DNA from: Mobula hypostoma
Lineage: Eukaryota
Direction: 5' to 3'
Length of the DNA: 64,000 nucleotides
Assembly: GCF_963921235.1 (NCBI RefSeq)
Contig: NC_086108.1
Coordinates: 186,001-250,000 of the forward strand
Shown here: piece after piece, positions 3,001-64,000 of the stretch
How positions within the stretch are numbered: the stretch's first letter is position 1
Layout of the letters: each line of letters begins with the position of its first letter
Program-made: the position numbers and the translations under genes
The notes under the pieces: model-generated
The model's input: only the letters and a program-made list of their open reading frames with translations
What the model was told of the DNA's origin: nothing
Databases searched by the model: none

Positions 3001-3460
3001 CTCATGCTATCCATTCGAAGTAGGCCGCTGTGGGTTTATTGCGTTCACTCTCCAGAAGTGGCTGCGTGACCTTGGCTTCACTAGAAGAGAGATCAAGTCA
3101 ACCAGCAAGGCTGTAGCTGAGACAGCAGAGAAAGGAGCAGCATGGGTGTGGACCAGGTATGTCCAGAGGGGCAGATAGTCAGACAGTGTATACATATCTT
3201 GCAAACCCTTCAGTAGTTGCATAGACACCTGAAGAGCAGACTATCTGTTGGATGGAAGTGACCAACAACTCTGATAGAGGCAGATGCCAAGTTTTTAAGC
3301 TCACCAGTGGGAGGTGGTGCTTTAGCACTGCTGGCCCACCACCTCGAGGGAGTCTTGATCATAAGCGGGCCGAAACTCCTGAAGACAGGTGGCACATCAA
3401 CTGATGATCCCACTGGTGATAGCACAGGACAGTTAACATCTTAGCCCACGTGTATTTTTA
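1..3460 (+). mobile_element. Hero/R2-group non-LTR retrotransposon (RT + CCHC + restriction-like endonuclease), decayed; 5' end lies outside the window
   Basis: RT motifs PISLLNVEGK, QKAGIPGFPGCLEH, WLDLANAYGSVPH, GIPMGCAISPILF and MDDL. ORF 1514-3178 carries CAAC..HILSAC, YTWRHNNVL, RPDIIVW..ELTVPWE..AHERKLTKY and PFEVG..GF (PD-(D/E)xK RLE typical of Hero). In-frame stops (489, ~1002, ~1161) and frameshifts (~820, ~1510) in the 5' half. 3' end approximate. Confidence 0.9.
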
Positions 3461-6904: not shown

Positions 6905-7270
6905 ATTCTTCAATGTTCCAAGTAAAACTTTATTATCAGAGTAGATACATGTCACCACATACAGCCCTGAGATTCTTTTTCTGCAGGCAACTGTAAACAG
7001 CATCAATAAATAACAAACTGTACAAATGCAATAAATAAGGAGAGCATGAAATAACAAGATAAACAGACCTTAAAGTGTGACCATCAGTTGTGGGAACAGC
7101 AGAAATAGAATGAGTGTAGTTATCCCCTTTTGTTCAGGAGCCTGATGGTTGAGGAGTAGTATCTGATCTTGAACCTGGTGGTGCGAGTCCTGAGGTACTT
7201 GTTCCCTCTACCTGATGGCAGCAGCGAGAAAAGAACATGGCCTGAGTGGTGAGGACCTTTGATAACAACT
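6905..7270 (-). mobile_element. Rex1/Babar LINE 3' fragment (un-amplified monomer of the 70-bp array family)
   Basis: Minus-strand HSGHVLFSLLPSGRGNKYLRTRTTRFKIRYYSSTIRLLN. CCTGATGG occurs at 7141 and 7211, 70 bp apart. Confidence 0.8.
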
Positions 7271-9997: not shown

Positions 9998-12900
9998 GGT
10001 ACAGGAGCCTCAGGACTCTCACCACCAGGTTCAAGAACAGTTACTACCCCTCAACCATCAGGTAGAAGGTACAGAAGCCTCAGGACCCACACCACCAGGT
10101 TCAAGAACAGTTACTACCCCTCAACCATCAGGTAGAAGGTACAGAAGCCTCAGGACCCACACCACCAGGTTCAAGAACAGTTACTATCCCTCAACCATCA
10201 GGTAGAAGGTGCAGGAGCCTCAGGACCCACACCACCAGGTTCAAGAACAGTTACTACCCCTCAACCATCAGGTAGAAGGTACAGGAGCCTCAGGACCCAC
10301 ACCAGCAGGTTCAAGAACAGTTATTACCACTCAACCATCAGGTAGAAGGTGCAGGAGCCTCTGGACCCACACCACCAAGTTCAAGAACAGTTACTACCCC
10401 TCAACCATCAGGTAGAAGGTGCAGGAGCCTCAGGACTTTCACCACCAGGTTCAAGAACAGTTACTACCCCTCAACCATCAGGTAGAAGGTACAGAAGCCT
10501 CAGGACCCACACCACCAGGTTCAAGAACAGTTACTACCCCTCAACCATCAGGTAGAAGGTACAGGAGCCTCAGGACCCACACCACCAGGTTCAAGAACAG
10601 TTATTACCCCTCAACCATCAGGTAGAAGGTGCAGGAGCCTCAAGACCACACCACCAGGTTCAAGAACAGTTACTACCCCTCAACCATCAGGTAGAAGGTA
10701 CAGGAGCCTCAGGACCACACCACCAGGTTCAAGAACAGTTATTACCCCTCAACCATCAGGTAGAAGGTGCAGGAGCCTCAGGACCACACCACCAGGTTCA
10801 AGAACAGTTACTACCCCTCAACCATCAGGTAGAAGGTGCAGGAGCCTCAGGACCCACACCACCAGGTTCAAGAACAGTTACTACCCCTCAACCATCAGGT
10901 AGAAGGTACAGGAGCCTCAGGACCACACCACCAGGTTCAAGAACAGTTACTACCCCTCAACCATCAGGTAGAAGGTACAGGAGCCTCAGGACCCACACCA
11001 CCAGGTTCAAGAACAGTTATTACCCCTCAACCATCAGGTAGAAGGTGCAGGAGCCTCAGGACCCACACCACCAGGTTCAAGAACAGTTACTACCCCTCAA
11101 CCATCAGGTAGAAGGTACAGGAGCCTCAGGACCACACCACCAGGTTCAAGAACAGTTACTACCCCTCAACAATCAGGTAGAAGGTACAGAAGCCTCAGGA
11201 CCACACCACCAGGTTCAAGAACAGTTATTACCCCTCAACCATCAGGTAGAAGGTGCAGGAGCCTCAGGACCCACACCACCAGGTTCAAGAACAGTTACTA
11301 CCCCTCAACCATCAGGTAAAAGGTGCAGGAGCCTCAGGACCCACACCACCAGGTTCAAGAACAGTTACTACCCCTCAACCATCAGGTAGAAGGTACAGAA
11401 GCCTCAGGACCCACACCACCAGGTTCAAGAACAGTTACTACCCCTCAACCATCAGGTAGAAGGTACAGGAGCCTCAGGACCCACACCAGCAGGTTCAAGA
11501 ACAGTTATTACCCCTCAACCATCAGGTAGAAGGTGCAGGAGCCTCAGGACCCACACCACCAGGTTCAAGAACAGTTATTACCCCTCAACCATCAGGTAGA
11601 AGGTGCAGGAGCCTCAGGACCCACACCACCAGGTTCAAGAACAGTTACTACCCCTCAACCATCAGGTAGAAGGTGCAGGAGCCTCAGGACCACACCACCA
11701 GGTTCAAGAACAGTTACTACCCCTCAACCATCAGGTAGAAGGTACAGGAGCCTCAGGACCCACACCACCAGGTTCAAGAACAGTTACTACCCCTCAACCA
11801 TCAGGTAGAAGGTACAGGAGCCTCAGGACCCACACCACCAGGTTCAAGAACAGTTATTACCCCTCAACCATCAGGTAGAAGGTGCAGGAGCCTCAGGACC
11901 CACACCACCAGGTTCAAGAACAGTTACTACCCCTCAACCATCAGGTAGAAGGTACAGGAGCCTCAGGACCACACCACCAGGTTCAAGAACAGTTACTACC
12001 CCTCAACCATCAGGTAGAAGGTACAGGAGCCTCAGGACCACACCACCAGGTTCAAGAACAGTTATTACCCCTCAACCATCAGGTAGAAGGTGCAGGAGCC
12101 TCAGGACCCACACCACCAGGTTCAAGAACAGTTACTACCCCTCAACCATCAGGTAGAAGGTGCAGGAGCCTCAGGACCCACACCACCAGGTTCAAGAACA
12201 GTTACTACCCCTCAACCATCAGGTAGAAGGTACAGAAGCCTCAGGACCCACACCACCAGGTTCAAGAACAGTTACTACCCCTCAACCATCAGGTAGAAGG
12301 TACAGGAGCCTCAGGACCCACACCACCAGGTTCAAGAACAGTTATTACCCCTCAACCATCAGGTAGAAGGTGCAGGAGCCTCAGGACCCACACCACCAGG
12401 TTCAAGAACAGTTACTACCCCTCAACCATCAGGTAGAAGGTACAGGAGCCTCAGGACCCACACCACCAGGTTCAAGAACAGTTACTACCCCTCAACCATC
12501 AGGTAGAAGGTACAGGAGCCTCAGGACCCACACCACCAGGTTCAAGAACAGTTACTACCCCTCAACCATCAGGTAGAAGGTACAGGAGCCTCAGGACCCA
12601 CACCACCAGGTTCAAGAACAGTTATTACCCCTCAACCATCAGGTAGAAGGTGCAGGAGCCTCAGGACCCACACCACCAGGTTCAAGAACAGTTACTACCC
12701 CTCAACCATCAGGTAAAAGGTGCAGGAGCCTCAGGACCCACACCACCAGGTTCAAGAACAGTTACTACCCCTCAACCATCAGGTAGAAGGTACAGGAGCC
12801 TCAGGACCCACACCACCAGGTTCAAGAACAGTTACTACCCCTCAACCATCAGGTAGAAGGTGCAGGAGCCTCAGGACTCTCACCACCAGGTTCAAGAACA

Positions 12901-14596
12901 GTTACTACCCCTCAACCATCAGGTAGAAGGTGCAGGAGCCTCAGGACCCACACCACCAGGTTCAAGAACAGTTACTACCCCTCAACCATCAGGTAGAAGG
13001 TACAGGAGCCTCAGGACCCACACCAGCAGGTTCAAGAACAGTTATTACCCCTCAACCATCAGGTAGAAGGTGCAGGAGCCTCAGGACCCACACCACCAGG
13101 TTCAAGAACAGTTACTACCCCTCAACCATCAGGTAGAAGGTGCAGGAGCCTCAGGACTCTCACCACCAGGTTCAAGAACAGTTACTACCCCTCAACCATC
13201 AGGTAGAAGGTACAGGAGCCTCAGGACCCACACCACCAGGTTCAAGAACAGTTATTACCCCTCAACCATCAGGTAGAAGGTGCAGGAGCCTCAGGACCCA
13301 CACCACCAGGTTCAAGAACAGTTACTACCCCTCAACCATCAGGTAGAAGGTACAGGAGCCTCAGGACTCTCACCACAAGGTTCAAGAACAGTTACTACCT
13401 CTCAACAATCAGGTAGAAGGTACAGAAGCCTCAGGACCACACCACCAGGTTCAAGAACAGTTACTACCCCTCAACCATCAGGTAGAAGGTACAGGAGCCT
13501 CAGGACCCACACCACCAGGTTCAAGAACAGTTACTACCCCTCAACCATCAGGTAGAAGGTACAGGAGCCTCAGGACTCTCACCACAAGGTTCAAGAACAG
13601 TTACTACCTCTCAACAATCAGGTAGAAGGTACAGAAGCCTCAGGACCACACCACCAGGTTCAAGAACAGTTACTACCCCTCAACCATCAGGTAGAAGGTA
13701 CAGGAGCCTCAGGACCCACACCAGCAGGTTCAAGAACAGTTATTACCCCTCAACCATCAGGTAGAAGGTGCAGGAGCCTCAGGACCCACACCACCAGGTT
13801 CAAGAACAGTTAATACCCCTCAACCATCAGGTAGAAGGTGCAGGAGCCTCAAGACCACACCACCAGGTTCAAGAACAGTTACTACCCCTCAACCATCAGG
13901 TAGAAGGTACAGGAGCCTCAGGACCACACCACCAGGTTCAAGAACAGTTATTACCCCTCAACCATCAGGTAGAAGGTACAGGAGCCTCAGGACCCACACC
14001 AGCAGGTTCAAGAACAGTTATTACCCCTCAACCATCAGGTAGAAGGTGCAGGAGCCTCAGGACCCACACCACCAGGTTCAAGAACAGTTACTACCCCTCA
14101 ACCATCAGGTAGAAGGTACAGGAGCCTCAGGACCACACCACCAGGTTCAAGAACAGTTACTACCCCTCAACAATCAGGTAGAAGGTACAGAAGCCTCAGG
14201 ACCACACCACCAGGTTCAAGAACAGTTATTACCCCTCAACCATCAGGTAGAAGGTGCAGGAGCCTCAGGACCCACACCACCAGGTTCAAGAACAGTTACT
14301 ACCCCTCAACCATCAGGTAGAAGGTACAGGAGCCTCAGGACTCTCACCACAAGGTTCAAGAACAGTTACTACCTCTCAACAATCAGGTAGAAGGTACAGA
14401 AGCCTCAGGACCACACCACCAGGTTCAAGAACAGTTACTACCCCTCAACCATCAGGTAGAAGGTACAGGAGCCTCAGGACCCACACCAGCAGGTTCAAGA
14501 ACAGTTATTACCCCTCAACCATCAGGTAGAAGGTGCAGGAGCCTCAGGACCCACACCACCAGGTTCAAGAACAGTTAATACCCCTCAACCATCAGG
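9998..14596 (+). repeat. ~4.6-kb minisatellite of about 66 units of 69/70 bp, derived from the Rex1/Babar ORF2 3' end
   Basis: Unit TAGAAGGT(A/G)CAGGAGCCTCAGGAC(C)CACACCACCAGGTTCAAGAACAGTTA(C/T)TACCCCTCAACCATCAGG, translating as PSGRRYRSLRTHTTRFKNSYYPSTIR. It runs into the normal LINE end (LLNNRG* and 3'UTR) at 14597. Copy number estimated as length divided by unit size. Confidence 0.97.
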
Positions 14597-14831
14597 CTCT
14601 TGAACAACAGGGGATAGGTACACTTATTCGATTGAGATGTTCCCACAACCAATGATCTTACTTTAATTATTCTTTATCTTGTTATTTCATACTCTTGTTA
14701 TTTATTGCTATTTATTTATATTGCATTTGCACTTGATCTTTTATTGATCCTGTTCACAGTTACTATTCTATAGAAATTGCTGAGTATGCCCACAGGAAAA
14801 TGAATCTCAGGGTCGTATGTGGTGACATGTA

Positions 14832-16408: not shown

Positions 16409-16645
16409 TATGTACTCTGAAAATATCAACTTCAAAATTGAAAATCTGAACTGTACTTTAGCTACGGACTTCATTCCAAGATTCGTTTATATGTGGTCTT
16501 CAGCATAGAAAGTGCCTTTTGTTATGGTCTGTCATTAGCAATGATAGCAGAACATTATAAATACAATAAACTCCGTACCATTACAATGCAATTGTTTTCC
16601 AATAATGGGTTGGTGCCAATTTCACAAGTACGCTGGCAACCTTTA

Positions 16646-17366
16646 TCTTGTTCTGGCATATTCCCCCTTCCTTTCCAGTCCTGATGAAAGGTCTTGGCCC
16701 AAAACGTCGACTGTTTATTCACTTCCACAGATGCAGCCTGACCTGCTGAGTTCCTCCAGCATTTTGTGTGAAGCCTTTCCCATGAACTTTCCTTCAACTA
16801 TCACTTTCTAGAATATTCCCCTTCTCCTCCCCCCTACCACGTTCTTGTTCTGGCATATTCCCCCTTCCTTTCCAGTCCTGATGAAAGGTCTTGGCCCAAA
16901 ACGTCGACTGTTTATTCACTTCCACAGATGCAGCCTGACCTGCTGAGTTCCTCCAGCATTTTGTGTGAAGCCTTTCCCATGAACTTTCCTTCAACTATCA
17001 CTTTCTAGAATATTCCCCTTCTCCTCCCCCCTACCACGTTCTTGTTCTGGCATATTCCCCCTTCCTTTCCAGTCCTGATGAAAGGTCTTGGCCCAAAACG
17101 TCGACTGTTTATTCACTTCCACAGATGCAGCCTGACCTGCTGAGTTCCTCCAGCATTTTGTGTGAAGCCTTTCCCATGAACTTTCCTTCAACTATCACTT
17201 TCTAGAATATTCCCCTTCTCCTCCCCCCCACCACGTTCTTGTTCTGGCATATTCCTCCTTCCTTTCCAGTCCTGATGAAAGGTCTTGGCCCAAAACGTCG
17301 ACTGTTTATTCACTTCCACAGATGCAGCCTGACCTGCTGAGTTCCTCCAGCATTTTTGTGTGTGTT
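16646..17366 (+). repeat. 197-bp tandem array (3.7 units) of a Penelope pLTR, each unit with a minimal hammerhead-like motif
   Basis: Units start at 16646, 16843, 17040 and 17237. CAGTC-CTGATGA-AAGGTCTTGGCCC-AAAA-C-GTC-GACTG with CTGATGA at 16681, 16878, 17075 and 17272. Confidence 0.92.
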
Positions 17367-26901: not shown

Positions 26902-29900
26902 GCTGAGCTCGCTGCATTGGCACTGCTTCCTGCATGCATGCTAAGCTCATTGACTTCATTAACTTTGCCTCCAACTTTCACCCTGCCCTCAAGTTTATCT
27001 TTATACTTCATACTTTATACTTCATTGTCGCCAAACAATTGGTACTAGAATGTACAATCATCACAGCGATATTTGATTTTGTGCTTCACACTCCCTGATT
27101 ACAAATATTAAATATTAAAGATATTAAAAACAGTTAAAAATAGTAAACATTAAAAATTTAAATTTTACATCATACATAAAAAATAGAAAAATGGGAAGTA
27201 AGGTAGTGCAAAAAAACTGAGAGGCAGGTCCGGATATTTGTAGGGTACGGCCCAGATCTGGGTCAGGATCCGTTCAGCAGTCTTATCACAGTTGGAAAGA
27301 AGCTGTTCCCAAATCTGGCCGTACGAGTCTTCAAGCTCCTGAACCTTCTCCCGGAGGGAAGAGGGATGAAAAGTCTGTTGGCTGGGTGGGTCGTGTCCTT
27401 GATTATCCTGACAGCACTGCTCCGACAGCGTGTGGTGTAAAGTGAGTCCACAGACGGAAGATTGGTTTGTGTGATGTGCTGCGCCGTGTTCACGATCTTC
27501 TGCAGCTTCTTTCGATCTTGGACAGGACAACTTCCATACCAGGTTGTGATGCACCCGAGAAGAATGCTTTCTATGGTGCATCTATAAAAAATAGTGAGGG
27601 TTTTAGGGGACAGGCCAAATTTCTTTAGTTTTCTCAGGAAGTAAAGGTGCTGGTGGGCCTTCTTGGCAGTGAACTCTACTTGGTTGGACCAAGACAGGTC
27701 ATTTGTGATATTGACCCCAAGGAACTTAAAGCTTTTGACCTGTTCCACTTGCGCACCACCGATGTAAATTGGGTTATGCGGTCCGCTACTCCTTCTGAAG
27801 TCAGCAACCAATTCCTTCGTCTTGCTGACGTTGAGGGATAGGTTATTGTCTTCGCACCATGCCACCAGGTTCTTAATTTCCTCTCTGTACTCAAACTCAT
27901 CATTACCCGAGATATGGCCAACAATTGTTGTGTCATCAGCAAACTTATATATTGAGTTTGATGGAAACTTGGCTGCACAATCATGGGTATACAGTGAGTA
28001 GAGCAGGGGGCTGAGTACACAGCCTTGTGGGGCATCGGTGCTCAGAGTGATTGTAGAGGAGAGCTTGTCCCCTATTTTTACAGCCTGGGTCCTGTTTGTG
28101 AGGAAGTTGAAGATCCAGCTGCAGATCTGAGTGCTAAGGCCCAGGTTCCAGGAATCAGTTTATTTGGAATGATGGTATTAAAGGCAGAGCTGTTGTCAAT
28201 GAAAAGGAGCCTTACATATGCGTCTTTATTCTCCAGGTGTTCTAAGGAGGAATGTAGGGCCAGAGAGATGGCATTTGCCGTTGACCTGTTGCTCTGGTAG
28301 GCGAATTGCAAAGCATCGAGGTTGACCGGTAGGCTGTGGTTGATGTGTGCCAAAACCAATCTCTCGAAGCACTTCATATCAATTGATGTCAGAGCCACAG
28401 GTCGATAGTCGTTCAGGCATGCCACCTTCCTCTTCTTCGGCACTGGGATTATCGTTGCCTTCTTCAAACACGAGGAGATCTTAGACTGAAGGAAGAAGCA
28501 GTTGAAGATGTCAGCAAACACTCCAGCTAGCTCCCTTGCACAGGCCCAGAGAACCCGTCCTGGGACGCCATCTGGGCCCGTCGCCTTCCTTGGATTTATC
28601 TTCAGGAAGGCCCTTCTAACGTCCTCCTCGGTGACGATGAATCTCGATTCCACCAGGTCTGGTTCATCCGGAGGGAGCGGGATGCTCCTCTTCTGTTCGA
28701 ATATTGCGTAGAATACGTTAAGTTTGTCAGGAAGAGAAGCGCCACAGTTATTGATATTCCCAACCTTTTCTTTGCACCCAGTGATCTCATTCAGACCCTG
28801 TCATAGTCTACTGGCATCCCTTTGGTTAGCCTGGGCTTCCAACTTGGCCCAATATTGCCTCTTGGCGCCCTTAATGGCTTTCCGGAGTTCACACCTGGAT
28901 TCTGTGTAGTGACTGGTAACCCCGGACCTAAAAGCCGCAGCTCTAGCCTTTAAAAGTGACGACCTCATAATTCATCCAAGATTTCTGGTTAGGGGATACC
29001 CGGATCGCCTTGCGAGACACACAGTCCTCCGTGCACTTCCAAATAAAGTCCGTGACAGCTGAGGCATACTCATCGAGGTTAGCTCCGAGTCCTTGAATAC
29101 TAACCTTGAATACCTGGTCCATTTCCGACACCTCCCTCCCTTTTCTAGATTTTTCTGTCTCTATCTCTGAAGACAGCTTATCTACTGATGCCTACTATAA
29201 GCCTACGGACTCTCACAGCTATCTGGACTCTTCCTCTTCTCACCCTGTCTCTTGAAAAAATGCCATCCCCTTCTCGCAATTCCTCCATCTCCGCCGTGTC
29301 TGCTCTCAGGATGAGGCTTTTCATTCCAGGACAAAGGAGATGTCCTCCTTTTTTAAAGAAAGGGGCTTCCCTTCCTCCACTATCAACTCTGCTCTCAAAC
29401 GCATCTTCCCCATTTCATGCACATCTGCTCTCACTCCATCCTCCCACCACTCCACTAGGGATAGGGTTCCCTTTGTCTTCACCTACCACCCCACCAGCCT
29501 CCAGGTCCAACAAATAATTCTCCGTAACTTCCGCCACCTCCAATGGGATCCCACTAATAAACACATCTTTCCCTCTCCCCACTCTGCTTTCCGCAGGGAT
29601 CGCTCCCTACGTGACTCCCTTGTCCATTCGTTCCCCCCATCCCACCCCACCGATCTCCCTCCCGGCACTTATCCTTGTAAGCGGACCAAGTGCTGCACAT
29701 GCCTTACACTTCCTCCCTTACCACCGTTCAGAGCCCCAGACAGTCCTTCCCGGTGAGGTGACACTTCACCTGTGAGTCGGCTGGGGTGATATACTGCGTC
29801 TGATGCTCCCGATGTGGCCTTCTATATATTGGCGAGACCCGACGCAGACTGGGAGATCGTTTCGCTGAACACCTACGCTCTGTCCACCAGAGAAAGCAGG

Positions 29901-37264: not shown

Positions 37265-38735
37265 TTACCAGGATGCTGCCCAGATCAGAGAGCATGGCTT
37301 TATGGAATGGGTGAACGAGTTAGGGCTTTTCTCTTTGGAGCGAAGGAGGGTGAGAGGTGACTTGATGAAGGAGATGAAAAAGGCATAGATCAAATGGGCA
37401 GTCAGAGACTTTTTCTCAGGTTGGAAGTGGCTAATGGGGAAGGGGGGCATCATTTTAAGGTAATTGGAGGAAAGTATAGGGGGGATGTCAGAGGTAAATT
37501 CTTCACACAGAGAGTAATGAGTGCATGGAACACCCTGCCAGGGGTGGTGGTAGAGGCAGATACATTAGGGACATTAAAGAGACTCTTAGATGGGCACATG
37601 GATGATAGAAGAATGGAGGGCTCTGTGGAAGGGAAAGGTTAAATTGACCTTAAAGTAGGTTAAAGATTAGCACCACATCGTGGGGTGAAGGGCCTGTACT
37701 GTGCTGTCAGGTTCTATGTTCTCTCCCTCCACAGCTATATATTCTTACCATCATTAAGGAACCCCACCACCCAGGACGTGCCCTCTTCTCATTGCTACCA
37801 TCAGGGAGGAGGTACAGGAGCCTGAAGACCCACAGTCAACGATTCAGGAACAGCTTCTTCCCCTGTGCCACCGGATTTCAGAATGGACATTGAGCCCAGG
37901 AACACCACCTCACTGTTTCTTGCAGTCTTTTTGCACTACTCATTCAGTTTAATTTTTAGTATGTTTCCTATTGCAACTTACAGTGTTTTTATGTCGCAAG
38001 TTTCACAACAACTTTCCCAATATATGTCAATGATGTGAAACCTGATTGTGATCAAGTGTGGTGATTCATCACTGGTGATACGGAACAGAATCAGAATTTG
38101 GTTCATATCACTGGGGTACGTGGTGAAACTTGTTGTTACGTGTTAGCAGTACAATGTAATACATAATAATCAAAACTGTGAATTACTGTATATATATAAA
38201 ACAGTTAAATTAATTAAGTAGTGCAAAAAGAGGGGGAGCAAAGTAGTGAGCTCGTGTCCATTCAGAAACCTGATGGCTGAGGGGAAAGAGCTGTTCCTGA
38301 ATTGTTGCGTTTGTGCCTTCAGGCTCCTGTACCTCCCCCCTGATGGTTGCAGTGAGAAGAGGGCATGCCTTGGGCGATGGGGGTCCTTGATGGTGGAGGC
38401 CATCTTTTTGAGGCATCGCTCCTTGAAGATGCCCTGGATGCTGGGGAGGTTAGTGCTCATGGTGGAGCTGACTGAGTTCACAACTTTCTGTAGCTCCTTT
38501 CGGTCCTGTGCAGTGCCCACTCCCCCACCATACCAGATGGTGATGCAGCCGATTAGACTGCTCTCCATGGTATATCTGTAGAGATTTGCAAGTGTCTTTG
38601 CAGACCTACTAAATCACCTCAGCCTCCTCATGATACATAGCCGATGTTGTGCCTTCTTTGTAACTGCATCGATATCCTCAGAGATGTTGACACCCAGGAA
38701 CATGAAATTGCTCACTCTCTCCACTTCTGATCCCT
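37265..38735. mobile_element. Cluster of LINE 3' fragments: CR1 (+, 37265-37720), Rex1/Babar (+, 37740-38050; -, 38090-38735)
   Basis: FFTQRV; PSGRRYRSLK and ESSLIGCITIWYG motifs. Confidence 0.8.
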
Positions 38736-38737
38736 CT

Positions 38738-41700
38738 ATGGTGGTGAGCAGCGAGCTAAATGGACCTTCCAGGTCGGAGGAGGCTCGGCAGGTGAAGCTA
38801 ATGACTCAAATTATCAGCTGATATAAGCAAGGCTCGTTCTCGGGGAGCGGCCTTGTCGAGGGAAGTGCCTTGTGAGAAAAGTGCCAGTCTTTGGCTCGGG
38901 AGTCTTCGGCGAGGAGGCTGAGAGTGAAGACTACGCCACAGTTGGACAGGGTGAGAAGTGGTGAAGAGATGACCACTAGGCTGATTCAGTGTGCTGCGTG
39001 CATGATGTGGGAAGTCAGGGACACTGATAACGCCTCTGGCTCCTGCACCTGTGGAAAATGTGTCCAGATTCAGCTTCTGAAGGACCGTGTTGCAGCACTG
39101 GAGAGGAAACTGGATGACATTAGGTTCATCTGGGAGAACGAAAGTTTTCTGGACAGGACCTACAGTTAGATCGTTACACCCAGGATACTGGAAGAGAGAA
39201 GGGGGAGGACGATGAGCAAGGAAAGGATGCTTGAAGTACAGGAGACCCCGGGAGCTGTGCCTCTCGTAAACAGGTTCTCCCTCTTGGAAGCTGGCGGGAC
39301 AGAAGACAGTGCCAGTCTGAGAGGCGGAGGGGTCTGCGAGTCAACAATTGGCGCTGAGGTCCGAGGAGACAGACGTCAGGCAGAGCCGTGGTAGTAGGGG
39401 ATTCCATAGTGAGAGGTACAGAAAGGGGTTTCTGTGGCAACAGGCAAGATTTAAGGATGGTGTGTTGCCTCCCTGGTGCCGGGATCCAGGATGTCACGGA
39501 CTGATTGCAGGGAATTCTCAAGAGTGAAGGTGAACATCCGGAAGTGGTAATGCATGTGGGCACAAATGACGTGGGGAAGAACGGGAAAGACATTCTACAG
39601 CGTGATTTCAGAGAACTCAGAAGAAAGCTGAAAAGCAGGACTTCCAGGGTGGTTATCTCCAGTTTGCTTCCAGTTCCCCGTGCTGGAGTGGTCAAGAACA
39701 GAGAGATAATGGATCTGAATGTGTGGCTGAGGAACTGGTGCAGGAAGCAAGGATTTACATTCTTGGACCACTGGGGTATGTTTCGGGGTAAGGATGAATT
39801 GTACAAAAGGGACGGGTTGCACCTTAATAAGCGGGGCACCAGCATTCTGGCAGGCAGGTTTGCCTCTGCAACACGGGTGTGTTTAAACTAAGTAGTGGGG
39901 GGGAGGGGACGAACTGGAAACATACGGATGGAGATAAAGGGAAAGTGAGAATAAGAAAAGTTAAGAAAGTCAGCAGAATCAACAGAGCAGAAAGCTCAAG
40001 AAGGGATCGTACAGTATGGCCAAGTGAAATAGGAATCGATATGGGAGGTGAGGGGAGTAATGAATTAAAAGTATTGTATATGAATGCACGGAGAATAAGA
40101 AATAAAGTGGATGAGCTTGAGGCTCAGTTGGAAACTGTATGATGTTGTGGGAATAACAGAGACATGGCTTCAAGTGGACAGGGCCTGGGAAATGAATATT
40201 CAAGGGTATATGTCCTATCGAAAGGACAGACTGATGGGCAGAGGGGGTGGGGTGGCTCTGTTGGTGAGGAATGATATTCAGTCCCTTGCGAGGGGGGACA
40301 TAGAATCAGGAGATGTAGAGTCAGTATGGATAGAACTGAGAAATTCTAAGGGTAGAAAGACCCGAATGGGAGTTATCTACAGGCCCCCAAACAGTAGTCT
40401 GGATGTAGGGTGTAAGTTGAATCAAGAGTTAAAGTTGGCATGTCGCAAGGGTAATGCTACAGTTGTTATGGGGGACTTCAACATGCAGGTAGACTGGAGG
40501 AATCAAGATGGTACTGGAGTTTGTGGAGTCCCTCCGAGATGGATTCTTAGAACAGCTTATACTGGAGCCTACCAGAGAGAACACAATTCTAGATTTAGTG
40601 TTGTGCAATGAACCGGATTTGATCAGGGACCTCGAGGTAAAGGAGCCATTAGGAGGTAGTGACCATAATATGCTAAGTTTTATAGACAATAGACAATAGG
40701 TGCAGAAGTAGACCATTTGGCCCTTCGAGCCTGCACAGTCATTCTGAGATCATGGCTGATCATCTACTATCAATACCCGGTTCCTACCTTGTCCCCATAA
40801 CCCTTGATTCCCCTATCCATAAGATACCTATCTAGCTCCTTCTTGAAAGCATCCAGAGAATTGGCCTCCACTGCCTTCTGAGGCAGCACGTTCCACACCT
40901 CCACAACTCTCTGGGAGTAGAAGTTCCTCCTCAACTCTGTCCTAAATGACCTACCCCTTATTCTTAAACCATGCCCTCTGGTACTGGACTCTCCCAGCAT
41001 CTGGAACATATTTCCAGCCTCTACCTTGTCCTATCCCTTAATAATCTTATATGTATCAATCAGATCCCCCCTCAATCTCCTTAATTCCAGCGTGTACAAG
41101 CCCAGTCTCTCTAACCTCTCTGCATAAGACAGTCCAGACATCCCAGGAATTAACCTAGTGAACCTACGCTGCACCTCCTCCACAGCCAGGATGTCCTTCC
41201 TTAACCCTGGAGACCAAAACTGCACACAATACTCCAGGTGTGGTCTCACCAGGGCCCTGTACAAATGCAAAAGGATTTCCTTGCTCTTGTACTCAATTCC
41301 CTTTGTAATAAAGACCAACATTCCATTAGCCTTCTTCATTGCCTGCTGCACTTGCTCATTCACCTTCAGAGACTGATGAACAAGTACTCCTAGATCTCTT
41401 TGTATTTCTCCCTTACCTAACTCCACACCATTCAGATAATAATCTGCCTTCCTGTTCTTGCTCCCAAAGTGAATAACCTCACACTTATTCACATTAAACG
41501 CTATCTGCCAAGTTTCTGCCCACTCACCCAGCCTATCCAAGTCACCCTGAATTCTCCTAACATCCGCATCACACGTCACACTGCCACCCAGCTTAGTATC
41601 ATCAGCAAACTTGCTGATGTTATTCACAATGCCTTCCTCTAAATCATTGACGTAAATTGTAAACAGCTGTGGTCCCAATACCGAGCCCTGTGGCACCCCA

Positions 41701-48640: not shown

Positions 48641-49560
48641 TAGGAGGTGGCAGTCTGGTGCTTATGGTCTCACTCCAAGGCTTGACTGATGAGAAATTTC
48701 CACTTTGTATAAGGTGCTGTTCTGGTCTCGGGGGCCCATCTATGTTCTCCTGAATATCAGGCAGCTTTTTGTGTGTCGGGCATAGAATGGAATCGAGATA
48801 TGAGGACATGAGTTCAGTGGGGCAGTAGCAGGCAGAGACAACAGGCCTACCCGGAGAGTCCGTTCTGTGGATCTTTGGTGGGAGGTAGAAGCGAGCAGTG
48901 CAGGGTTAGGGAACTACGAGTTTGGTAACAGTGGTTGGGAGATCTCCAGAGTGGATGAAGTCAGTGATGTGTCGGAGACAGTTTTCTGATGGTGTGGAGT
49001 GGGGTCGTCCTCGAGGGGTAGGTGTGAGGAAGTGTCTGAGAGTCGCCGCCTGGCCTCAGCAAAGTAGAGGTCAGTGGGCCACACTACAACAGCATCCCAT
49101 TCGCCTGCCAGTTTGATGGTCAGGTTGGGATTGGTGCAGGGAGAGTAGAGGGCAGTGCATTCAGTGGAGGAGTGAAGCAGTGATGAAGTCGAGATGGTTG
49201 ATGTCCCGTCGGCAATTCGAGATCAGAAGATCTACCCTCCCTCCTTGTCACCACTCCAAGCCCACTGCCAACATCGAGAGTGCCAACTTACCACAGGGAT
49301 TGAAACATCAAGTCCTAGTAGCTCTACTACTATTGGAGAGCATTCTAACCGGCTGCATCACTGGTCTGGTATGGAGGGGCCACTGCACAGGATTGGAAAC
49401 AACTGCGGATGGTTGCAAACTCAGGCGGCTCCAACACAGGATATAGCCCACCCCCTCCCCCTCAGCATCAAGGACATCTTCAAAAGGTGATGCCTCAGAA
49501 AGTCGGCATCCATTATGAAGGACCCCCCATCACCCAAGACACGCCCTCTTCTCATTGCTA

Positions 49561-49917
49561 CCATCAGGGAGGAGGAACTGGAGCCTGAAGACACACACCC
49601 AATGATTCAGGAACAGTTTCTTCCCCTCCGCCATCAGGGAGGAGGTACAGGAGCCTGAAGACACACACTCAGCGATTCAGGAACAGTTTCTTCCCCTCCG
49701 CCATCAGGGAGGAGGTACAGGAGCCTGAAGACACACACTCAGCGATTCAGGAACAGTTTCTTCCCCTCCGCCATCAGGGAGGAGGTACAGGAGCCTGAAG
49801 ACACACAACCAATGATTCAGGAACAGTTTCTTCCCCTCTGCCATCAGGGAGGAGGTACAGGAGCCTGAAGACACACACCCAGTGATTCAGGAACAGTTTC
49901 TTCCCCTCTGCCATCAG
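49561..49917 (+). repeat. Five 70-bp tandem units within a Rex1/Babar 3' end
   Basis: CCATCAG at 49561, 49631, 49701, 49771, 49841 and 49911. The unit encodes PSGRRYRSLKTHTQRFRNSFFPSAIR. Confidence 0.95.
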
Positions 49918-50495
49918 ATTTCTGAATGGACACTGAACCCATGAACACCACCTCGCTGCTTTCTTTGCTCTCATTTTGCACTCTTTAAATTTTGTATCAG
50001 GATCAGGTTTAACATCGCCGGCATACGTCATGAAGTTTGTTAACTTTGCTGGAGCGGCACAATGCAATAACAAGCGAATTACAGCAAGTATATGTACAGT
50101 ATATTAAATAGATAAACTTAGATAAGTAGTGCAAAAAACAGAAAATTTACAAAAAGAAGTAATGAGTTCATGGGTTCAATGTCCATTTTGAAATCTGTGT
50201 GTATAAGCTATCTTATGTTTTCATATTTATTCTGTTTTTTTTAAATTACAGTGTTCTTTATCTTACTGTGTTGGTCATCTTGTGTTTTTTTTTGTCCTGT
50301 ATCAGATCTGGAGTTACATTTATTTTGTTCTCCTTTACACTTGACATTAACCAATCGTGGAGTTCTCCTGCGTTCCGAGAATCAATCAGTAACTTCACTG
50401 AGGAACTGAATCGACTTGCAGCATCTAAGGTCCCTCTTTTGGGCAACACTCTACGAGCAAGCTGGGTGCATCGGAAGCTTTCAAACTCCCCTTAC

Positions 50496-50595: not shown

Positions 50596-52484
50596 CTGCG
50601 GCAAAACGGAAGGATAGCTAAAAGCCAAAGAGCTGTGCAGGTAGATCACAAAACTACAAGACATAAAGCACTGTGCAAAAGGCTCAGGTATATAGTGGGG
50701 TGCCCAAGACTTTTAGACAGTACTGTACTAAATTTATGTATCACACAGAATCAGGTTTATTATCACCGGCATGTGTCATATAATTTATCCAATTAGCAGC
50801 GACCGTTCAATGCAACACGTAATGTAGAAGAAAAAAAGAAAAATAAATAAGTAAATCAATTACAGTCTATGCATGTTGAATAGATTGTGCAGAAACAGAA
50901 ATAATATAGATTAAAAAAGCGAGGTAGTGTCCAAGGGTTCAATGTCCATTTGGGAATCGGATGGCAGAGAGAAAGAAGCTGTTCCTGTGCTGTCAGGCTG
51001 CTGTCCCTCCTACCTGATTGTAACAGTGAGAAAAGGGCATGACCTGGTGCTGGCGGTCCTTAATAATGGACGCTGCCTTTCTGAGACACCGCTCCTTGAA
51101 GATGCCCTGGGTACTTTGTAGACTAGTACCCAAGATGGAGCTGACTAGATTCACCACCCTCTGCAGCTTCTTTCGGTCCTATGCAGTAGCCCCCACCTCC
51201 CCCCACCCCCATATCTGACAGTGTCAGAATGCTCTCCACGGAAGTTTTCGAGTGCATTTGTTGACATACCAAATCTCTTCAAACTCCTACTCTGTAGCTC
51301 TCAATTCTGTACTGCTGCCATGAAGAATAAAATTTCACGACATATGTGAGTGACAATAAACCTGATTCTGATGTGGGTGTCTATTGTGGACTGAGAGTAG
51401 AAGGGGGCAGGGAGAGGGGAATCATGGTTGGGAAAAGGGAAAGGGAGAGGGGAGGGAGCGGGAAGCACCAGAGGGACATTCTGTAATGATCAATAAACCT
51501 ATTGTTTGGAATCAGATGACCTTGCCTGCTCTCTCAGGGCTGGGTGTGTTTGCTCCTGCCTCTGGCACTCCTTCTCTGCCACCTGTCCCACACCCCTCCC
51601 GCAGTGCTCCGTCCTCACCATTCCCAACGTCCTTTACTCCCATCGGATTTACAAGCTCACTCTCCGCTCCACATTGACAACTTTTGCACTGTACTGTAGT
51701 TAAGCAGCATCTGTAAAAAAAAGACAAAACTAGTCAATCTAGATTATTTCATCCTCTCCCCTCCCATCAGACAGATGGATAAAGTGCCACCCGGTTCCAG
51801 GTTAGTTTTTAACCTGCTGTTATAGGACTACTGAACGATCCCCGAACAGGATAACATAGACTCTTAACCTCACAATGTACCTCATTGTAACTATTCACTT
51901 TATTATCTGCTGGCGTTGCACTTTCTGAGTAACTGTAATATATTCTGCACTCTGTTATTGTCTTCCCTCAATTGTCGTGTTGGAATGAAATAATCTCTGC
52001 GGAGGGCACGCGAAGCAAGTATTTTCACTGTCTCTTAGTTCATTGGTTATGGGCCACGTCGCCTGACATCATCACGCGCCGTGTTGCGTGACGTGGGCGA
52101 TCACGGTCTTTCCATGACCATGATTGTTCTTGGCAAATTTTTCTACAGAAGTGGTTTGCCATTGCCTCCTTCTGGCCAGTGTCTTTACAAGACAGCTGAC
52201 CTCACCCCAGCCACATTATCAATACTCTTCAGAGATTGTCCGCCTGGCGTCGGTGGTCACATAACCAGAACTTGTGATCTTCACCGGCTGCTCATACGAC
52301 CATCCACCGCCTGCTCCCATGCTTTCATGTGACCCTGATCGGGGGGTGGCGGCTACGCGGGTGCTACACCTTGCCCAAGGGTGACCAGCAGGCCAGCAGA
52401 GGGAAGCAGCGCCTCACACCTCCTTTGGTAGAGATTCATCTCCACCCCGCCACCCACATGTCCCTCAGTACATGTGACAATAGT

Positions 52485-53256: not shown

Positions 53257-53427
53257 CTTGAAAATTCCAATCCAGTCGTTCTTATGGGGTGTGATCCTGG
53301 GGGTCAAGGTGTAATTGCATTTTACAGCAACGTCTCTCATGTACTGCTTTTCGACGTTGACAGAGATTACTTGGGCGAAGGTGCTGGAGTACAGTGAAGA
53401 GGTGCCAGTCAATGACTCTTCGTTCAT
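53257..53427 (-). CDS. CALCOCO2: First coding exon of a CALCOCO2/TAX1BP1-like SKICH gene (MNEESLTGTSSLYSSTFAQVISVNVEKQYMRDVAVKCNYTLTPRITPHKNDWIGIFK)
   Basis: Acceptor ttgtttctctctttgttgctcAG (exon starts at 53437), ACCATG start, donor AAG|GTAAG. SKICH signature FAQV..NVEK.Y..C.YTL..P..DWIGIFK. Paralog is uncertain. Confidence 0.88.
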
Positions 53428-56764: not shown

Positions 56765-57994
56765 GCGAAGGAGGTTAAAAATTTGCAGAACACTGTAGTA
56801 ATTTTACATATTGTACTGCACTGTAGCCACACAAAATAAAACAAGTTTCATGACATATATGAGTGACGATAAACCTGATTCCGATGTGGGTCTCCATTGT
56901 GGACTGAGAGTGGGAAGGGAGGCAGGGAGAGGGGAATCATGGTTGGGAAAAGGGTGGGAGTGGGAAGCATCAGAGAGACATTCTGTCATGATCGGTAAAC
57001 CAATTGTTTGGAATCAAATGACCTTGCCTGGTGTCTCAGGGCCGGGTGTGTCGGTACCCCCGCCAGACACACCTTCTCTGCCACCTGTCCCCACACCCCT
57101 ACGGCGGTATTCCACACGCAAAATTCCCAACATCCCTTTGCTCCCGCCGGATTTAAAAGCACGCTCTCAGTGCACGTTGACAAACACAGTACTGCGTGCA
57201 GAAGTCTTAGGCACCCCAACTACATACAGGCGCCCGAGATGTTTGCACAGACTGTAAACAGCAGAATTAAGCCATTCAGCCCATCGAGTCTGCTCTGGAA
57301 GAGGAGAGAAAACAGGGGTACAGTTGAGCAGCGATAGGATCAATGTTCAGGCTGTGATACAACAAAAGGGTGTACATTTCATGGTGTGCCCAACTTACTG
57401 GAACATAGATGGAAAAATCATACAACTCCCATGATTGGAAAATCCACCAGGGTGGGGCAGAAAAATCTGTTAGCAGTAAAATTATATCCCAACAACTGCC
57501 CAACACATTAACCAAAGAGAATAAATGAAATGTCCAAATCACTTCTACTGTTTTTGTGTGGGGGAGATAGAGGAAGGGGGGGGTTGTGGATTGATGTTCA
57601 ATCTGACGTTTCTGTGTGGACAATCAGTTAGTTTTTGTGAGAGGGAGGGGATTCGGGAGGGGTTTGGGATTTGATGTTCAATCTGATGTTTCCGTGTGGA
57701 CGATCTGTTAAGTTTTTGTGTGAGTCAGGGGATTGCGGGGGGAGTTGGGGTATATGCCTAAGACATTTACACAGTACTCTTCATATAAGTTGACTTATAA
57801 ATTAAATTGTTTATAGTATTTATTTTAAATAAATTAAATATGTAGTGCAGAAAGAGAGCAAAAACGGTGAGGTAGTGTTCATGGGTTGATGGTCCGTTCA
57901 GAAATCTGATGGCAGAGGGAAAGAAGCTGTTCCTGAATCGCTGAGTGTGAGCCTTCAGGCTTCTGGACGGTAGCGATGAGAAGAGGCCATGTCA

Positions 57995-60214: not shown

Positions 60215-63200
60215 ATCTCTCTCTCTCCCTCCCTCCCTCTCCCTTTCTCTCTCTCCCTCCCTCTCACTCTCTCTCTCTTTCCCTCCCTCTCCCCTCCCCT
60301 GTATCTCTCTCTCCCCCTCTCTCCCTCCCTCCTTCTCCCACTCACTTTCCACCTCTCTCACCGCCTCTCCACACTCCTCTCACCCTCCCCTTTCTCACCG
60401 CCTCTCTCCCCTCCCCCCACCCTTCCCCCCTCTCTCCCCCTCCCTCCCTCCCTCCCTCTCTCCCTCATCCTCCCTCCCTCCCTCTCTCCCTCTCCCTCCC
60501 TCCCTCACTCCCTCTTCCTCCCCCCTCCCTCTTTCCCTCTTCCTCCCCCTCCCTCTTTCCCTCTTCCTCCCCCTCCCGCTCTCCCACTCTCCCTCTTCCT
60601 CCCTCCCTCCCTCTCTCCCTCTTCCTCCCTCCACCCCTCTCCCTCTTCCTCCCTCCCCCCTCCCTCCCTCCCTCTCCCTCTCTCCCTCTCTCCCTCTCCC
60701 TCCCTCCCTCTCCCGCTCCCTCTTCCTCCCCCCTCTCCCCCCCCTCTCCCCCTCTCCCTCCCTCTCTCTCCCTCTCCCTCTCTCCCTCTTCCTCCCTCCC
60801 TCCCTCTCTCCCCCTTCCTCCCTCCCCACCTCTCTCACCCCCCTCTCCACTCACCTCTCCCTTACCCCTCTCCCTTCCCCCTCCCTCTCCCTCCCCCCTC
60901 GCCCTCTCCACTCCCTCTCTCCGACCATCCTTCTCCCTCTCCCTCGCCACCTCTCTCACCCCCTCTCTTTCCTCTCCTCTCCCCCCTTCTCACCACCTCT
61001 CTCCCACTCCCTCCCTCACTCTCCCCTCTCCCTCCCTCCCTCACGCTCCCCATCTCCCTCACCCTCTCCCTCCATCCCTTATGCTCCCCATCTCCCTCAC
61101 TCTCCCTTACTCTCCCTCGCTCCCTCCCTCACTCTCCCCTCCCTCCCTGACTCTCCCCTCCCTCTTTCACTCTCCCCCTGTCCTTCGCTCCCCCTCCCCC
61201 TCCCTCCCTCACTCTCCCCTCTCCCTCCTGCACTGTCCCCTCCTCCCTCTCTCCCTCATTCTCACCCTCTTCCTCCCTCACTCTCCCCCTCTCCCTCCCT
61301 CACTCTCCCTTTCCATCCCTCACTCCCCCCTCTCCCCCTCACTATCCACTCCCTCCCCCATTCTCCCCCTCTCCCTCTCACTCTCCTTCCCTCACTCTAC
61401 CCTCTCCCTCCCTCCCTCTCCCCTATCCCTACCTCACTCTCCCTCCCTCCCTCACTCACCCCCTCTCCCTCCCTCTCTCTCCCCCTCCCTCCCTGACTCT
61501 CCCCTCCCTCATTCTCTGCCTCCCTCCTTCACTCTCCCCCTCTCCTTCCCTCACTCTCCCCCTCCCTCCCTCACTCTCCTCTCTCCCTCCCACACCGTCC
61601 CCTCCTCCCTCACTCCCTCACTATCACCCTCTCTGTCCCTCACTCCCCCCTCCCTCCCTGACTCCCCTCTCATTCCCCCTCCCTCACTCTCCCCTCTCCC
61701 TTCCTCACTCTCCCCCTCCCTCACTTTCCCCTCCCTCCCTCACTCTCCCCCTCTCCCTCACTCACTCTCCCTCTCCATCCCTCACTCTACTCCTCTCCCT
61801 CCCTCACTCTCCCACTCTCCCTCCCTCCCTCACTCACCCCCTCTCCCTCCCTCACTCTCACTCTCCCTCCCAGTCTTCCTCCCTACCTCACACTCCCCCT
61901 CTCCCTCCCTCCCTCACTCACCACCTCTCCCTCCCTCACATTCTCTCCCCCTCCCTCTCCCTCTCTCCCTCTTCCTCCCTTCCTCCCTCCCTCCCTCCCT
62001 CCCTCTTCCTCCCTCCCTCCCTCTCCCTCTCTCCCTCTCTCCCTCTCTCCCTCTCTCCCTCTCTCCCTCTCCCTCTTCCTCCCTCCCTCTGCCTCTTCCT
62101 CCCCCCTCTCCCTCCCTCTCCCCCCTCCCCCCTTCTCCCTCTCTTCCTCTCTCCCTCTCCCTCCCTCCCTCTTCCTCCCCCTCCCCCTCCCTCCCTCTCT
62201 CTCCCCTCCCTCTCTCCCTGTTCCTCCTTCCCTCCCTCTCTCCCCTTCATCCCTCCCCACCTCTCTCACCCCCCTCTCCACTCTCCTCTCCCCTACCCCT
62301 CTCCCTTTCCCCCTCCCTCTCCCTCCCCCCTCGCCTTCTCCACTCCCTCTCTCCGTCTATCCTTCTCCCTCTCCCTCGCCACCTCTGTCACCCCCTCTCT
62401 CTCACCCCCCTCTCTCACCCCCTCTCCCATCCCCCTCTCTCTGCCAGCCTCTCCTCCTCTCTACGTGCCTCCTTCTCCCTCGCCACCTCTCTCACCCCCT
62501 CTCTTTCCTCTCCTCTCCCCCTTCTCACCACCTCTCTCCCCCTCCCTCCCTCACTCTCCCCCTCCCTCCCTCACGCTCCCCATCTCCCTCACCCTCTCCC
62601 TCCCTCACTCTCCCTCCATCCCTCATGCTCCCCATCTCCCTCACTCTCTCCTCTCCCTTACTCTCACTCCCTCCTTCACTCTCCCCCTCCCTCCCTGACT
62701 CTCCCCCACTTTTACTCTCCCCCTGTCCTTCGCTCCCCCCCTTCCTCACTCTCCCCTCTCCCTCCTGCACTGTCCCCTCCTCCCTCTCTCCCTCACTCTC
62801 ACCCACTTCCTCCCTCACTCTCCCCCTCTCCCTCACTCACTCTCCCTTTCCATCCCTCACTCTCCCCCTCTCCCCCCTCACTATCCACTCCCTCCCCCAC
62901 TCTCCCCCACTCCCTCACTCACTCTCCTTCCCTCACTCTACCCTCTCCCTCCCTCTCTCTCCCCCTCCCTCCCTGACTCTCCCCTCCCTCATTCTCTGCC
63001 TCCCTCCTCCACTCTCCCCTTTCCTTCCCTCACTCTCCCCCTCCCTCCCTCACTCACTCTCCTCTCTCCCTCCCACACCATCCCCTCCTCCCTCACTCCC
63101 TCAATATCACTCTCTCTCCCTCACTCCCCCTCCCTCCCTGACTCCCCTCTCATTCCCCCCTCACTCTCCCCTCCCTCACTTTCCCCTCCCTCCCTCACCC

Positions 63201-64000
63201 TCCCCTATCCCTCACTCACTCTCCTTCTCCATCCCTCACTCTACTCCTCTCCCTCACTCACTCTCCCACTCTTCCTCCCTCCCTCACTCACCCCCTCTCC
63301 CTCCCTCACTCTCGCTCCCCTCTCCCTCTCTCACTCTTACTCTCCCTCCCTCAGTCTTCCTCCCTACCTCACACTCCCCCTCTCCCTCCCTCCCTCACTC
63401 ACCCCCTCTCACTCCTTCACATTCCCTCTCCCTCACTCGCTCTCCCCCTCCCTCTCCCTCTCTCCCTCTTCCTCCCTCCCTCCCTCTCTCCCTCTTCCTC
63501 CCTCCCTCCCTCTCTCCCTCTTCCTCCCTCCCTCCCTCTCCCTCTCTCCCTCTCTCCCTCTTCCTCCCTCCCTCTCCCTCTTCCTCCCCCCTCCCCCCCT
63601 CCCTCCCTCTCCCTCTTCCTCTCTCCCTCTCCCTCCCTCCCTCTCCCACTCCCTCCCCCTCTCCTCCCTCTCCCTCCCTCTCCCTCCCCACCTCTCTCAC
63701 CCCCCTCTCCACTCACCGCTCCCTTTCCCCCTCCCTCTCCCTCCCACCTAGCCCTCTCCACTCCCTCTCTCTGTCCATCCTTCTCCCTCGCCACCTCTGT
63801 CACCCCCTCTCTCTCACCGCCCTCTCTCTCACCCCCTCTCTCTCACCCCCTCTCTCTCACTGCCCTCTCTCTCACCCCCTCTCTCTCACCCCCCCTCAGC
63901 CCCTCTCTCCCATCCCCCTCTCCCCTTTTCTCTGCCAGCCTCTCCTCCTCTCTACGTGCCTCCTTCTCCCTCGCCACCTCTCTCCCCCTCCCTCCCTCCC
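60215..64000. repeat. >3.7-kb polypyrimidine/polypurine tract with ~1.5-kb higher-order duplication
   Basis: Almost entirely C/T, with CCCT/CTCT/CTCA motifs. Marker strings recur at 61870/63352, 62443/63934 and 61223/62761. Confidence 0.95.

What the first reader, a model, noticed from the sequence alone, without database searches (positions are those of the whole stretch)
49561..49917. Independent amplification of the homologous 70-bp LINE segment in a different subfamily
Seen: five exact 70-bp periods, again bounded by CCATCAG, but with a clearly different unit sequence (..SLKTHTQRFRNSFFPSAIR vs ..SLRTHTTRFKNSYYPSTIR). A monomeric relative has CCTGATGG at 38269 and 38339. Two separate origins within 40 kb suggest that Rex1/Babar 3' ends are a recurrent genome-wide source of 70-bp VNTRs. 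I do not know of a description of this.
Basis: partly seen in the sequence, partly recalled or inferred. Interest (0 to 1): 0.7.

Follow-up and report, generated by a model that had tools for sequence, protein, structure and literature searches.

The report
LINE-tail 70-bp minisatellite in rays
The same 70-base piece near the end of a common jumping gene has been copied head-to-tail on two separate occasions in this stretch of ray DNA, and similar arrays occur in other rays; it is a clear new example of a known way in which mobile elements seed short tandem repeats.

Summary
The array is real: five 70-bp units plus a closing CCATCAG, without indels. The units differ by 0-5 bases, so only the spacing is exact. 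It sits inside a decayed LINE 3' end, with LINE body upstream and LINE tail downstream. A second array of about 66 units lies at 9998-14596.

Separate origins are well supported. Each array groups with monomers of its own subfamily. The differences between the two units are conservative in the ORF2 frame (p<=1.5e-4), so the units diverged in coding LINEs before they were duplicated. Arrays of the other subfamily's kind appear as 16 predicted proteins on 9 contigs of three ray species.

Three things are not shown: a sharp genome-wide peak at period 70, recurrence of this subfamily's array at other loci, and the absence of pre-duplicated masters within a subfamily. No genome was available. The CCATCAG pair is not unusual among the LINE's short repeats, and other periods occur.

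The mechanism (duplication between 5-10-bp direct repeats, then local expansion) is known from Alu-derived minisatellites. I found no paper on this unit. The scan noted LINE-tail minisatellites before in other genomes, not this unit. Verdict: new member of a known kind.

The parts
49334..49560 (+). Decayed LINE ORF2 3' body upstream of array B (stops and frameshifts)
   Evidence: blastn to the monomer at 38270-38567, 76% over 309 bp; translation
49561..49910 (+). Array B: five 70-bp units, each starting with CCATCAG (codons P-S-G of ORF2)
49911..49917 (+). Closing CCATCAG (codons A-I-R of ORF2), second copy of the 7-bp direct repeat
49918..49985 (+). End of ORF2 (FLNGH, stop at 49934-49936) and start of the B-type 3' tail, cut short
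50000..50197 (-). Tail-only fragment of a B-type element, inverted, directly behind element B (left limit approximate)
9998..14596 (+). Array A: a partial first unit (from unit position 14) plus 65 full units (49 of 70 bp, 16 of 69 bp), A subfamily
14597..14830 (+). A-type ORF2 end and 3' tail; interrupted at about 14832-16409 by a DNA-transposon-like insert, tail resumes near 16412-16455
   Evidence: insert ends read by eye
6915..7263 (-). A-type monomer with both CCATCAGG copies (7142-7218)
38180..38745 (-). B-type monomer with both CCATCAGG copies (38270-38346)
37741..37940 (+). B-type monomer, second site changed to CCACCGG
50914..51203 (-). B-type monomer with an internal deletion of about 14 bp
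57827..57993 (-). B-type monomer with an internal deletion of about 12 bp
27263..28800 (-). Longer copy of a third subfamily with RT (PF00078) and PF09004; same C-terminus, neither CCATCAG present, monomeric
53257..53418 (-). SKICH-domain exon (TAX1BP1/CALCOCO family), context only; array B lies about 3.3 kb downstream on the opposite strand

Best explanation
Array B is a minisatellite born inside one dead copy of an RT-encoding LINE of a myliobatiform ray. In subfamilies A and B the codons for P-S-G and A-I-R (A-type: T-I-R) both spell CCATCAG(G), 70 bp apart (shown). Misalignment between the two short repeats, by replication slippage or unequal exchange, duplicated the 70-bp segment (inferred from the junction). 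Longer homology then drove further local gains (shown indirectly: units 2 and 3 are identical, others differ). This happened separately from array A, in a LINE lineage that had already diverged from A's as a coding element (shown). The first duplication came early in the copy's life (inferred). Because 3' ends are the most numerous part of the family, the same seed fires repeatedly in ray genomes (shown for A-type at protein level, only hinted for B-type). No function is proposed.
For: Anatomy body-[unit]x5-CCATCAG-tail. A and B consensus differ at 15 of 70 sites: monomer 7218 is A-like at 14 of 15, monomers 37798 and 38346 are B-like at 11 of 15 each; no B unit (0 of 5) carries an A allele and no A unit (0 of 49 70-mers) a B allele; the tree splits A+7218 from B+B monomers at 97/96. 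The 17 differences between the commonest A unit and B unit 2 give BLOSUM62 97 in the ORF2 frame against about 58 for random placement (p 0/20000 and 1.5e-4), with 7 synonymous codon changes, while variants within each array include stops. Tails also match by subfamily. 16 of 114 candidates are array read-through proteins in Hypanus sabinus (6 contigs), Mobula birostris (2) and M. hypostoma (1); several show a 70-residue period; P0003 and P0008 begin in LINE body. In contigs of 4 runs from 4 studies, depth falls about 3-12-fold on leaving the unit on either side, and the best-supported row of the 12 listed in table 5c is a 70-bp go-back joint. The model is that of Haber and Louis as cited in PMC3389668 and PMC6947457.
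Against: Exact repeats of 7-9 bp at 10-150 bp spacing are common in these LINE copies (11 in 566 bp; 13 in 1636 bp), so the pair alone does not explain a preference. Only 1 of 63 sites is a private change shared by all five B units, which fits duplication at or before insertion equally well (P=0.085 for the deepest unit pair being as old as the flanks). Array A lacks the 5' CCATCAG and LINE body needed for in-place duplication. No B-type array was found elsewhere at protein level, though a stop in the third frame makes that expected. The depth signal is weak: a second peak as high lies in the LINE body at 38690-38729, the reference is diverged next to both boundaries, and no clean 70-bp joint is among the 15 joints shown of 776. 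Six of the 7 listed go-back joints have other periods (41-56). The window is rich in other tandem repeats.
Confidence: 0.6

Rival explanations
1. The duplication is made or spread by retrotransposition. Either the reverse transcriptase slips back from the upstream to the downstream CCAUCAG on its own RNA, or a master (or transcribed array) that already carries two or more units and an intact 3' tail is copied to new sites. A and B would still be separate events, but many loci within a subfamily would share one origin.
For: Array A begins at unit position 14 with no LINE body upstream, as a 5'-truncated copy of a multi-unit RNA would (flank score reached by 62-496 of 1000 shuffles). Its junction puts a TAG six codons before the natural ORF2 end (TIR* against TIRLLNNRG*), so a duplicated master might stay functional. 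B units share only one private change. PMC3389668 suggests both routes for human TEs.
Against: No target-site duplication was found for A; the one 7-mer for B lies inside neighbouring repeats. Monomers of both subfamilies exist in the window and no dimer was seen among 10 copies. A later deletion explains A's 5' end equally well. Junction-proximal codons differ among array A, the Hypanus/Mobula arrays and array B.
Confidence: 0.25
2. There is no special hotspot. LINE 3' ends are simply very numerous and this region favours tandem repeats, so duplications arise at many microhomologies; the 70-bp one stands out by chance and by the way it was searched for.
For: Many equal microhomologies; go-back joints of period 48 (two runs), 47, 51, 56 and 41; proteins of other lineages show LINE-end arrays of period 88 and 52, and possibly 67; other arrays of 197, 54, 33 and 18 bp and a 3.7-kb CT-rich tract in the window; my protein queries held the 70-bp junction.
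Against: The only arrays that Tandem Repeats Finder reports on the 10 copies of this 3' end in the window have the same period and register; the same unit is amplified on 9 contigs in three species; in run X17 the unit's depth is about twice the control peak, against 0.6-0.75 in the other three runs.
Confidence: 0.15
3. One ancestral array gave rise to both, by descent or by recombination between an A-type array and a B-type monomer followed by homogenisation.
For: The units share their first 28 bases at most sites; predicted protein P0014 has A-type units ending in a B-like last unit, though this may be a gene-model splice.
Against: No A alleles in B units or the reverse at 15 sites; the divergence carries a coding signature; tails match subfamily.
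Confidence: 0.05

Closest known systems
TE-derived minisatellites of the human genome (Ahmed and Liang 2012, PMC3389668; Introduction and Results read), with Alu-derived minisatellites of Jurka and Gentles 2006 (not read; known through this paper and PMC6947457)
   Same: Unit is an internal piece of a retroelement; array flanked by a short direct repeat (the paper finds most at 7 bp); local expansion after birth; multilocus arrays and weak hotspots within a TE consensus are reported.
   Different: Here the source is the coding end of an autonomous LINE in a cartilaginous fish; both repeats are codons; the same unit arose in two subfamilies 21% apart and reaches about 66 copies.
Haber and Louis 1998 model of minisatellite origin (not read; as summarised in PMC3389668 and PMC6947457)
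   Same: A motif flanked by 5-10-bp direct repeats is duplicated by slippage or unequal crossing-over, then expands.
   Different: Array A lacks the 5' repeat, so it fits only if a later deletion or a 5'-truncated insertion is assumed.
Satellites derived from LINE ORF2 or 3' ends (chicken HinfI/CR1, Phodopus PROsat/L1, cetacean common satellite/L1; passages of PMC9659126)
   Same: Tandem repeat built from LINE ORF2 or 3' sequence.
   Different: Those are large satellites, mostly with long units; this is a dispersed set of short arrays still inside their parent copies.
LTR12 internal repeats and the SVA VNTR (LTR12 from PMC3389668; SVA structure from its Introduction)
   Same: Would be the model if arrays travel with the element.
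   Different: Travel with the element is not shown here; monomers dominate in the window (8 of 10 copies).

Membership tests
Minisatellite | Head-to-tail units of about 10-100 bp | tested here: met
   Period 70, 5.1 copies
Minisatellite (VNTR) | Copy number varies between individuals | not tested
TE-derived tandem repeat | Unit matches part of a dispersed element and lies within a copy of it | tested here: met
   LINE body upstream, tail downstream, monomeric relatives
Haber-Louis type minisatellite | Array flanked by a 5-10-bp direct repeat that is also present in the unduplicated state | tested here: met
   Array B: CCATCAG at both ends; monomers 7218 and 38346 have CCATCAGG twice, 70 bp apart. 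Array A meets it at the 3' end only.
Non-LTR retrotransposon (LINE) ORF2 3' end | Continuous with an RT-encoding frame | tested here: met
   B-type monomer ORF is 50% identical over 119 aa to the C-terminal part of the 27263-28159 ORF, which has PF00078 and PF09004
Rex1/Babar clade | RT groups with Rex1/Babar references in a tree | not testable with these tools
Rex1/Babar clade | AP endonuclease domain with the RT; conserved 3' UTR followed by short oligonucleotide repeats (PMC6274825 section 2) | tested here: inconclusive
   All copies are 5'-truncated; tails are conserved within subfamilies but decayed
Minisatellite carried by a mobile element (SVA/LTR12-like) | Multi-unit copies inserted as such, with shared array structure and target-site duplications | tested here: inconclusive
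   No target-site duplication found; array A is truncated mid-unit; no genome to compare loci

The most novel reading that the evidence does not exclude
This LINE family manufactures and spreads its own minisatellite: the reverse transcriptase slips between two codon-encoded CCAUCAG sites, or tail-bearing arrays are retrotransposed. One 70-bp VNTR seed is thus renewed in several subfamilies across stingrays and devil rays, and in the A lineage a duplicated master could stay active because the junction stop removes only six residues. The same P-S / A-I-R codon overlap may seed arrays in distant LINE lineages (unnamed proteins P0021 and P0026, leads only).
Probability: 0.2. Interest if true: 0.6.

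Novelty: new member of a known kind. Interest (0 to 1): 0.3.

Why it matters
Minisatellite birth is rarely seen with the unduplicated state, small arrays and large arrays side by side. A family with many monomers and repeated births of one unit would allow birth and expansion rates, and the role of microhomology against retrotransposition, to be measured in public ray assemblies. There is also a practical point. These arrays are annotated in three ray genomes as 'mucin-2-like', 'basic salivary proline-rich', 'osa-like' or uncharacterised proteins and as UBE2Z isoform ends, which are most likely read-throughs of the repeat rather than real proteins (inference).

Tried and rejected
Cluster look-up for accession numbers could not be made.

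Hairpin bringing the two repeats together: B-type units can fold so, but no better than shuffles (z from -1.36 to +1.38 over 6 RNA and 6 DNA folds). Rejected as unsupported.

Special length of the microhomology: rejected. Protein constraint forcing the repeat: rejected as a full explanation, since the third subfamily keeps P-S-G with other codons and has neither site.

Target-site duplications: none credible. Array A being the array beside UBE2Z in Mobula: no UBE2Z exon in the window. Higher-order period in array A: none strong (best 0.20 at 11 units), although short blocks recur.

DNA pattern scans: 0 hits in viral contigs, 0 in metagenomes, and 1 with a looser pattern, a monomer of a more distant relative.

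Contig depth was not used as copy number. Assembly artefact: unlikely, since the units differ from each other.

Literature: eight searches and passages of three ray genome papers showed no description of this unit. Supplements were not read, bioRxiv supplements are closed, and repeat libraries could not be searched, so an entry may exist there.

Full report
OBSERVATION. The array is at 49561-49917: period 70, 5.1 copies, no indels, with CCATCAG at six positions 70 apart. Units differ by 0-5 bases (mean 3.6 of 70); only units 2 and 3 are identical. A second array, here called A, spans 9998-14596 with a partial unit and 65 full units. The spaced CCATCAG pair has 62 matches in the window against 0.06 expected; 60 are in the two arrays and 2 in monomers.

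HOST AND ELEMENT. No genome is held. The nearest named proteins are from Hypanus and Mobula, and earlier scan notes call the genome a devil ray (unchecked). Array B has decayed ORF2 sequence upstream and the ORF2 end and tail downstream. A B-type monomer is 50% identical over 119 residues to the C-terminus of an ORF with RT and PF09004 domains at 27263-28159, so this is a LINE 3' end. The Rex1/Babar name is recalled and untested. The window holds 10 copies of this 3' end that include the unit: 2 arrays, 6 clear monomers and 2 weak ones. The two CCATCAG copies are the codons for P-S-G and A/T-I-R.

INDEPENDENCE OF A AND B. The array consensuses differ at 15 of 70 sites. The monomer at 7218 has the A state at 14 of them; those at 37798 and 38346 have the B state at 11 each. 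No allele crosses between arrays (5 B units, 49 A 70-mers). A tree of 19 rows (5 B units, the 8 commonest of 20 distinct A units, 6 monomers) splits A+7218 from the rest at 97/96, with bootstrap not fully settled. Tails agree with this split. The differences between the commonest A unit and B unit 2 are strongly conservative in the ORF2 frame (BLOSUM62 97 against 58; p<=1.5e-4), not in frame +1 (p about 0.97), and mildly in frame +2 (p about 0.008). Variants within each array include stops. The units therefore diverged inside active LINE lineages, and one ancestral non-coding array is very unlikely.

RECURRENCE. The junction read-through peptide found 5 proteins among 6 candidates, 3 of them multi-copy arrays. 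Several have a 70-residue period. Some may be one array or orthologues, such as those in UBE2Z models of both Mobula. All are A-type. B-type arrays carry a stop in the third frame and would rarely be annotated; none appeared among 15 hits in 1.84 billion representatives. That search gave unnamed proteins with cycles of 88, 52 and 67 residues. The first two lie in or end in LINE-like sequence of other lineages; the third is unproven.

READS. Contigs of 4 runs, of 23 listed, were laid on the monomer at 38150-38745 at 80% likeness. Depth at 38337 against 38348, across the upstream repeat, was 1077830/350336, 509201/180997, 742846/172421 and 400874/34329. At 38278 against 38269 it was 462963/169530, 282626/95725, 307811/94078 and 112624/13777. 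Against this: a peak as high lies in the LINE body, the reference is diverged near both edges, and such depth is no copy number. Only run X17 shows a clear excess over that control peak. Of 12 joints listed with inserted letters (57 hidden), 7 go back; by my arithmetic their periods are 70 (the deepest row), 48, 48, 47, 51, 56 and 41. The 15 plain joints shown of 776 are all skips. This is a hint of amplification, not proof of a sharp peak.

MECHANISM. Shown: the repeat pair in monomers, the junction, subfamily-specific origin, and recent local gain (units 2 and 3). Inferred: slippage or unequal exchange at CCATCAG. Timing is early: one private change is shared by all five units, and the deepest pair (5 of 63) is not clearly younger than the flanks (17 of 116 against monomer 37798; P=0.085). 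Array A starts at unit position 14 with a flank unlike LINE and no target-site duplication, and its junction places a stop six codons before the ORF2 end. This keeps open duplication during reverse transcription or spread from a duplicated master. Why this pair is favoured is unexplained: equal repeats are common and folding is unremarkable. The most likely reasons are the high copy number of 3' ends and retention of the pair in two large subfamilies (inference).

KNOWN WORK. Ahmed and Liang (PMC3389668; outline, Introduction and Results read) report 7,276 TE-derived human minisatellites, 300 flanked by 5-20-bp direct repeats mostly of 7 bp, multilocus clusters, and hotspots in AluS and LTR12. 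Reviews list LINE-derived satellites (PMC9659126 and PMC6947457, passages). PMC6274825 (passages and section 2) describes Rex1 without such arrays in the parts read. Passages of three ray genome papers (10.1101/2025.06.08.657570, 10.64898/2026.10.27.761883, PMC12946260) do not mention this unit; one reports L2/CR1/Rex at 12.5-22% of batoid genomes. Eight searches found no description; supplements and repeat libraries were not seen.

VERDICT. Real, independent at subfamily level, recurrent in rays for the A type, and mechanistically of a known kind. Interest 0.3. The bolder reading, a LINE that makes and spreads its own minisatellite, has about 0.2 probability.

Noticed in passing
window 16646-17362: Young 197-bp x 3.6 array (99% matches) built from a dispersed repeat plus about 70 bp present only in the junctions.
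   Followed up: no
window 60217-63932: 3.7-kb CT-rich low-complexity tract; with several other short arrays it suggests a tandem-repeat-rich region.
   Followed up: no
window 53257-53418 (-): SKICH-domain exon of a TAX1BP1/CALCOCO-family gene; other exons were not looked for.
   Followed up: partly
window 1164-3178 (+): Long ORFs of a different non-LTR element with a zinc-binding and restriction-like-endonuclease-type C-terminus (type recalled; Pfam gave only weak zf-RVT).
   Followed up: no
window 14832-16409: DNA-transposon-like insert at TA inside the tail of element A, ends CAGGT...ACCTG.
   Followed up: partly
window 50914-51203 and 57827-57993: Two B-type monomers carry short deletions inside the same 70-bp segment, one between CAG repeats.
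   Followed up: partly
proteins P0017, P0019, P0004: Gene models of UBE2Z (two Mobula species) and plexin-A1 (Hypanus) end in this LINE segment: possible exonisation or annotation artefact.
   Followed up: no
protein P0014: A-type units followed by a B-like last unit; a chimaeric array or a gene-model splice.
   Followed up: no
proteins P0021, P0022, P0026: Three-frame cycles of 67, 88 and 52 residues from unnamed sources, pointing to LINE-end minisatellites in other lineages; P0021 and P0026 end their unit at S-A-I.
   Followed up: partly
window 49565-49582 and each unit: The purine-rich start of the unit resembles the human minisatellite core sequence (recalled, not tested).
   Followed up: no
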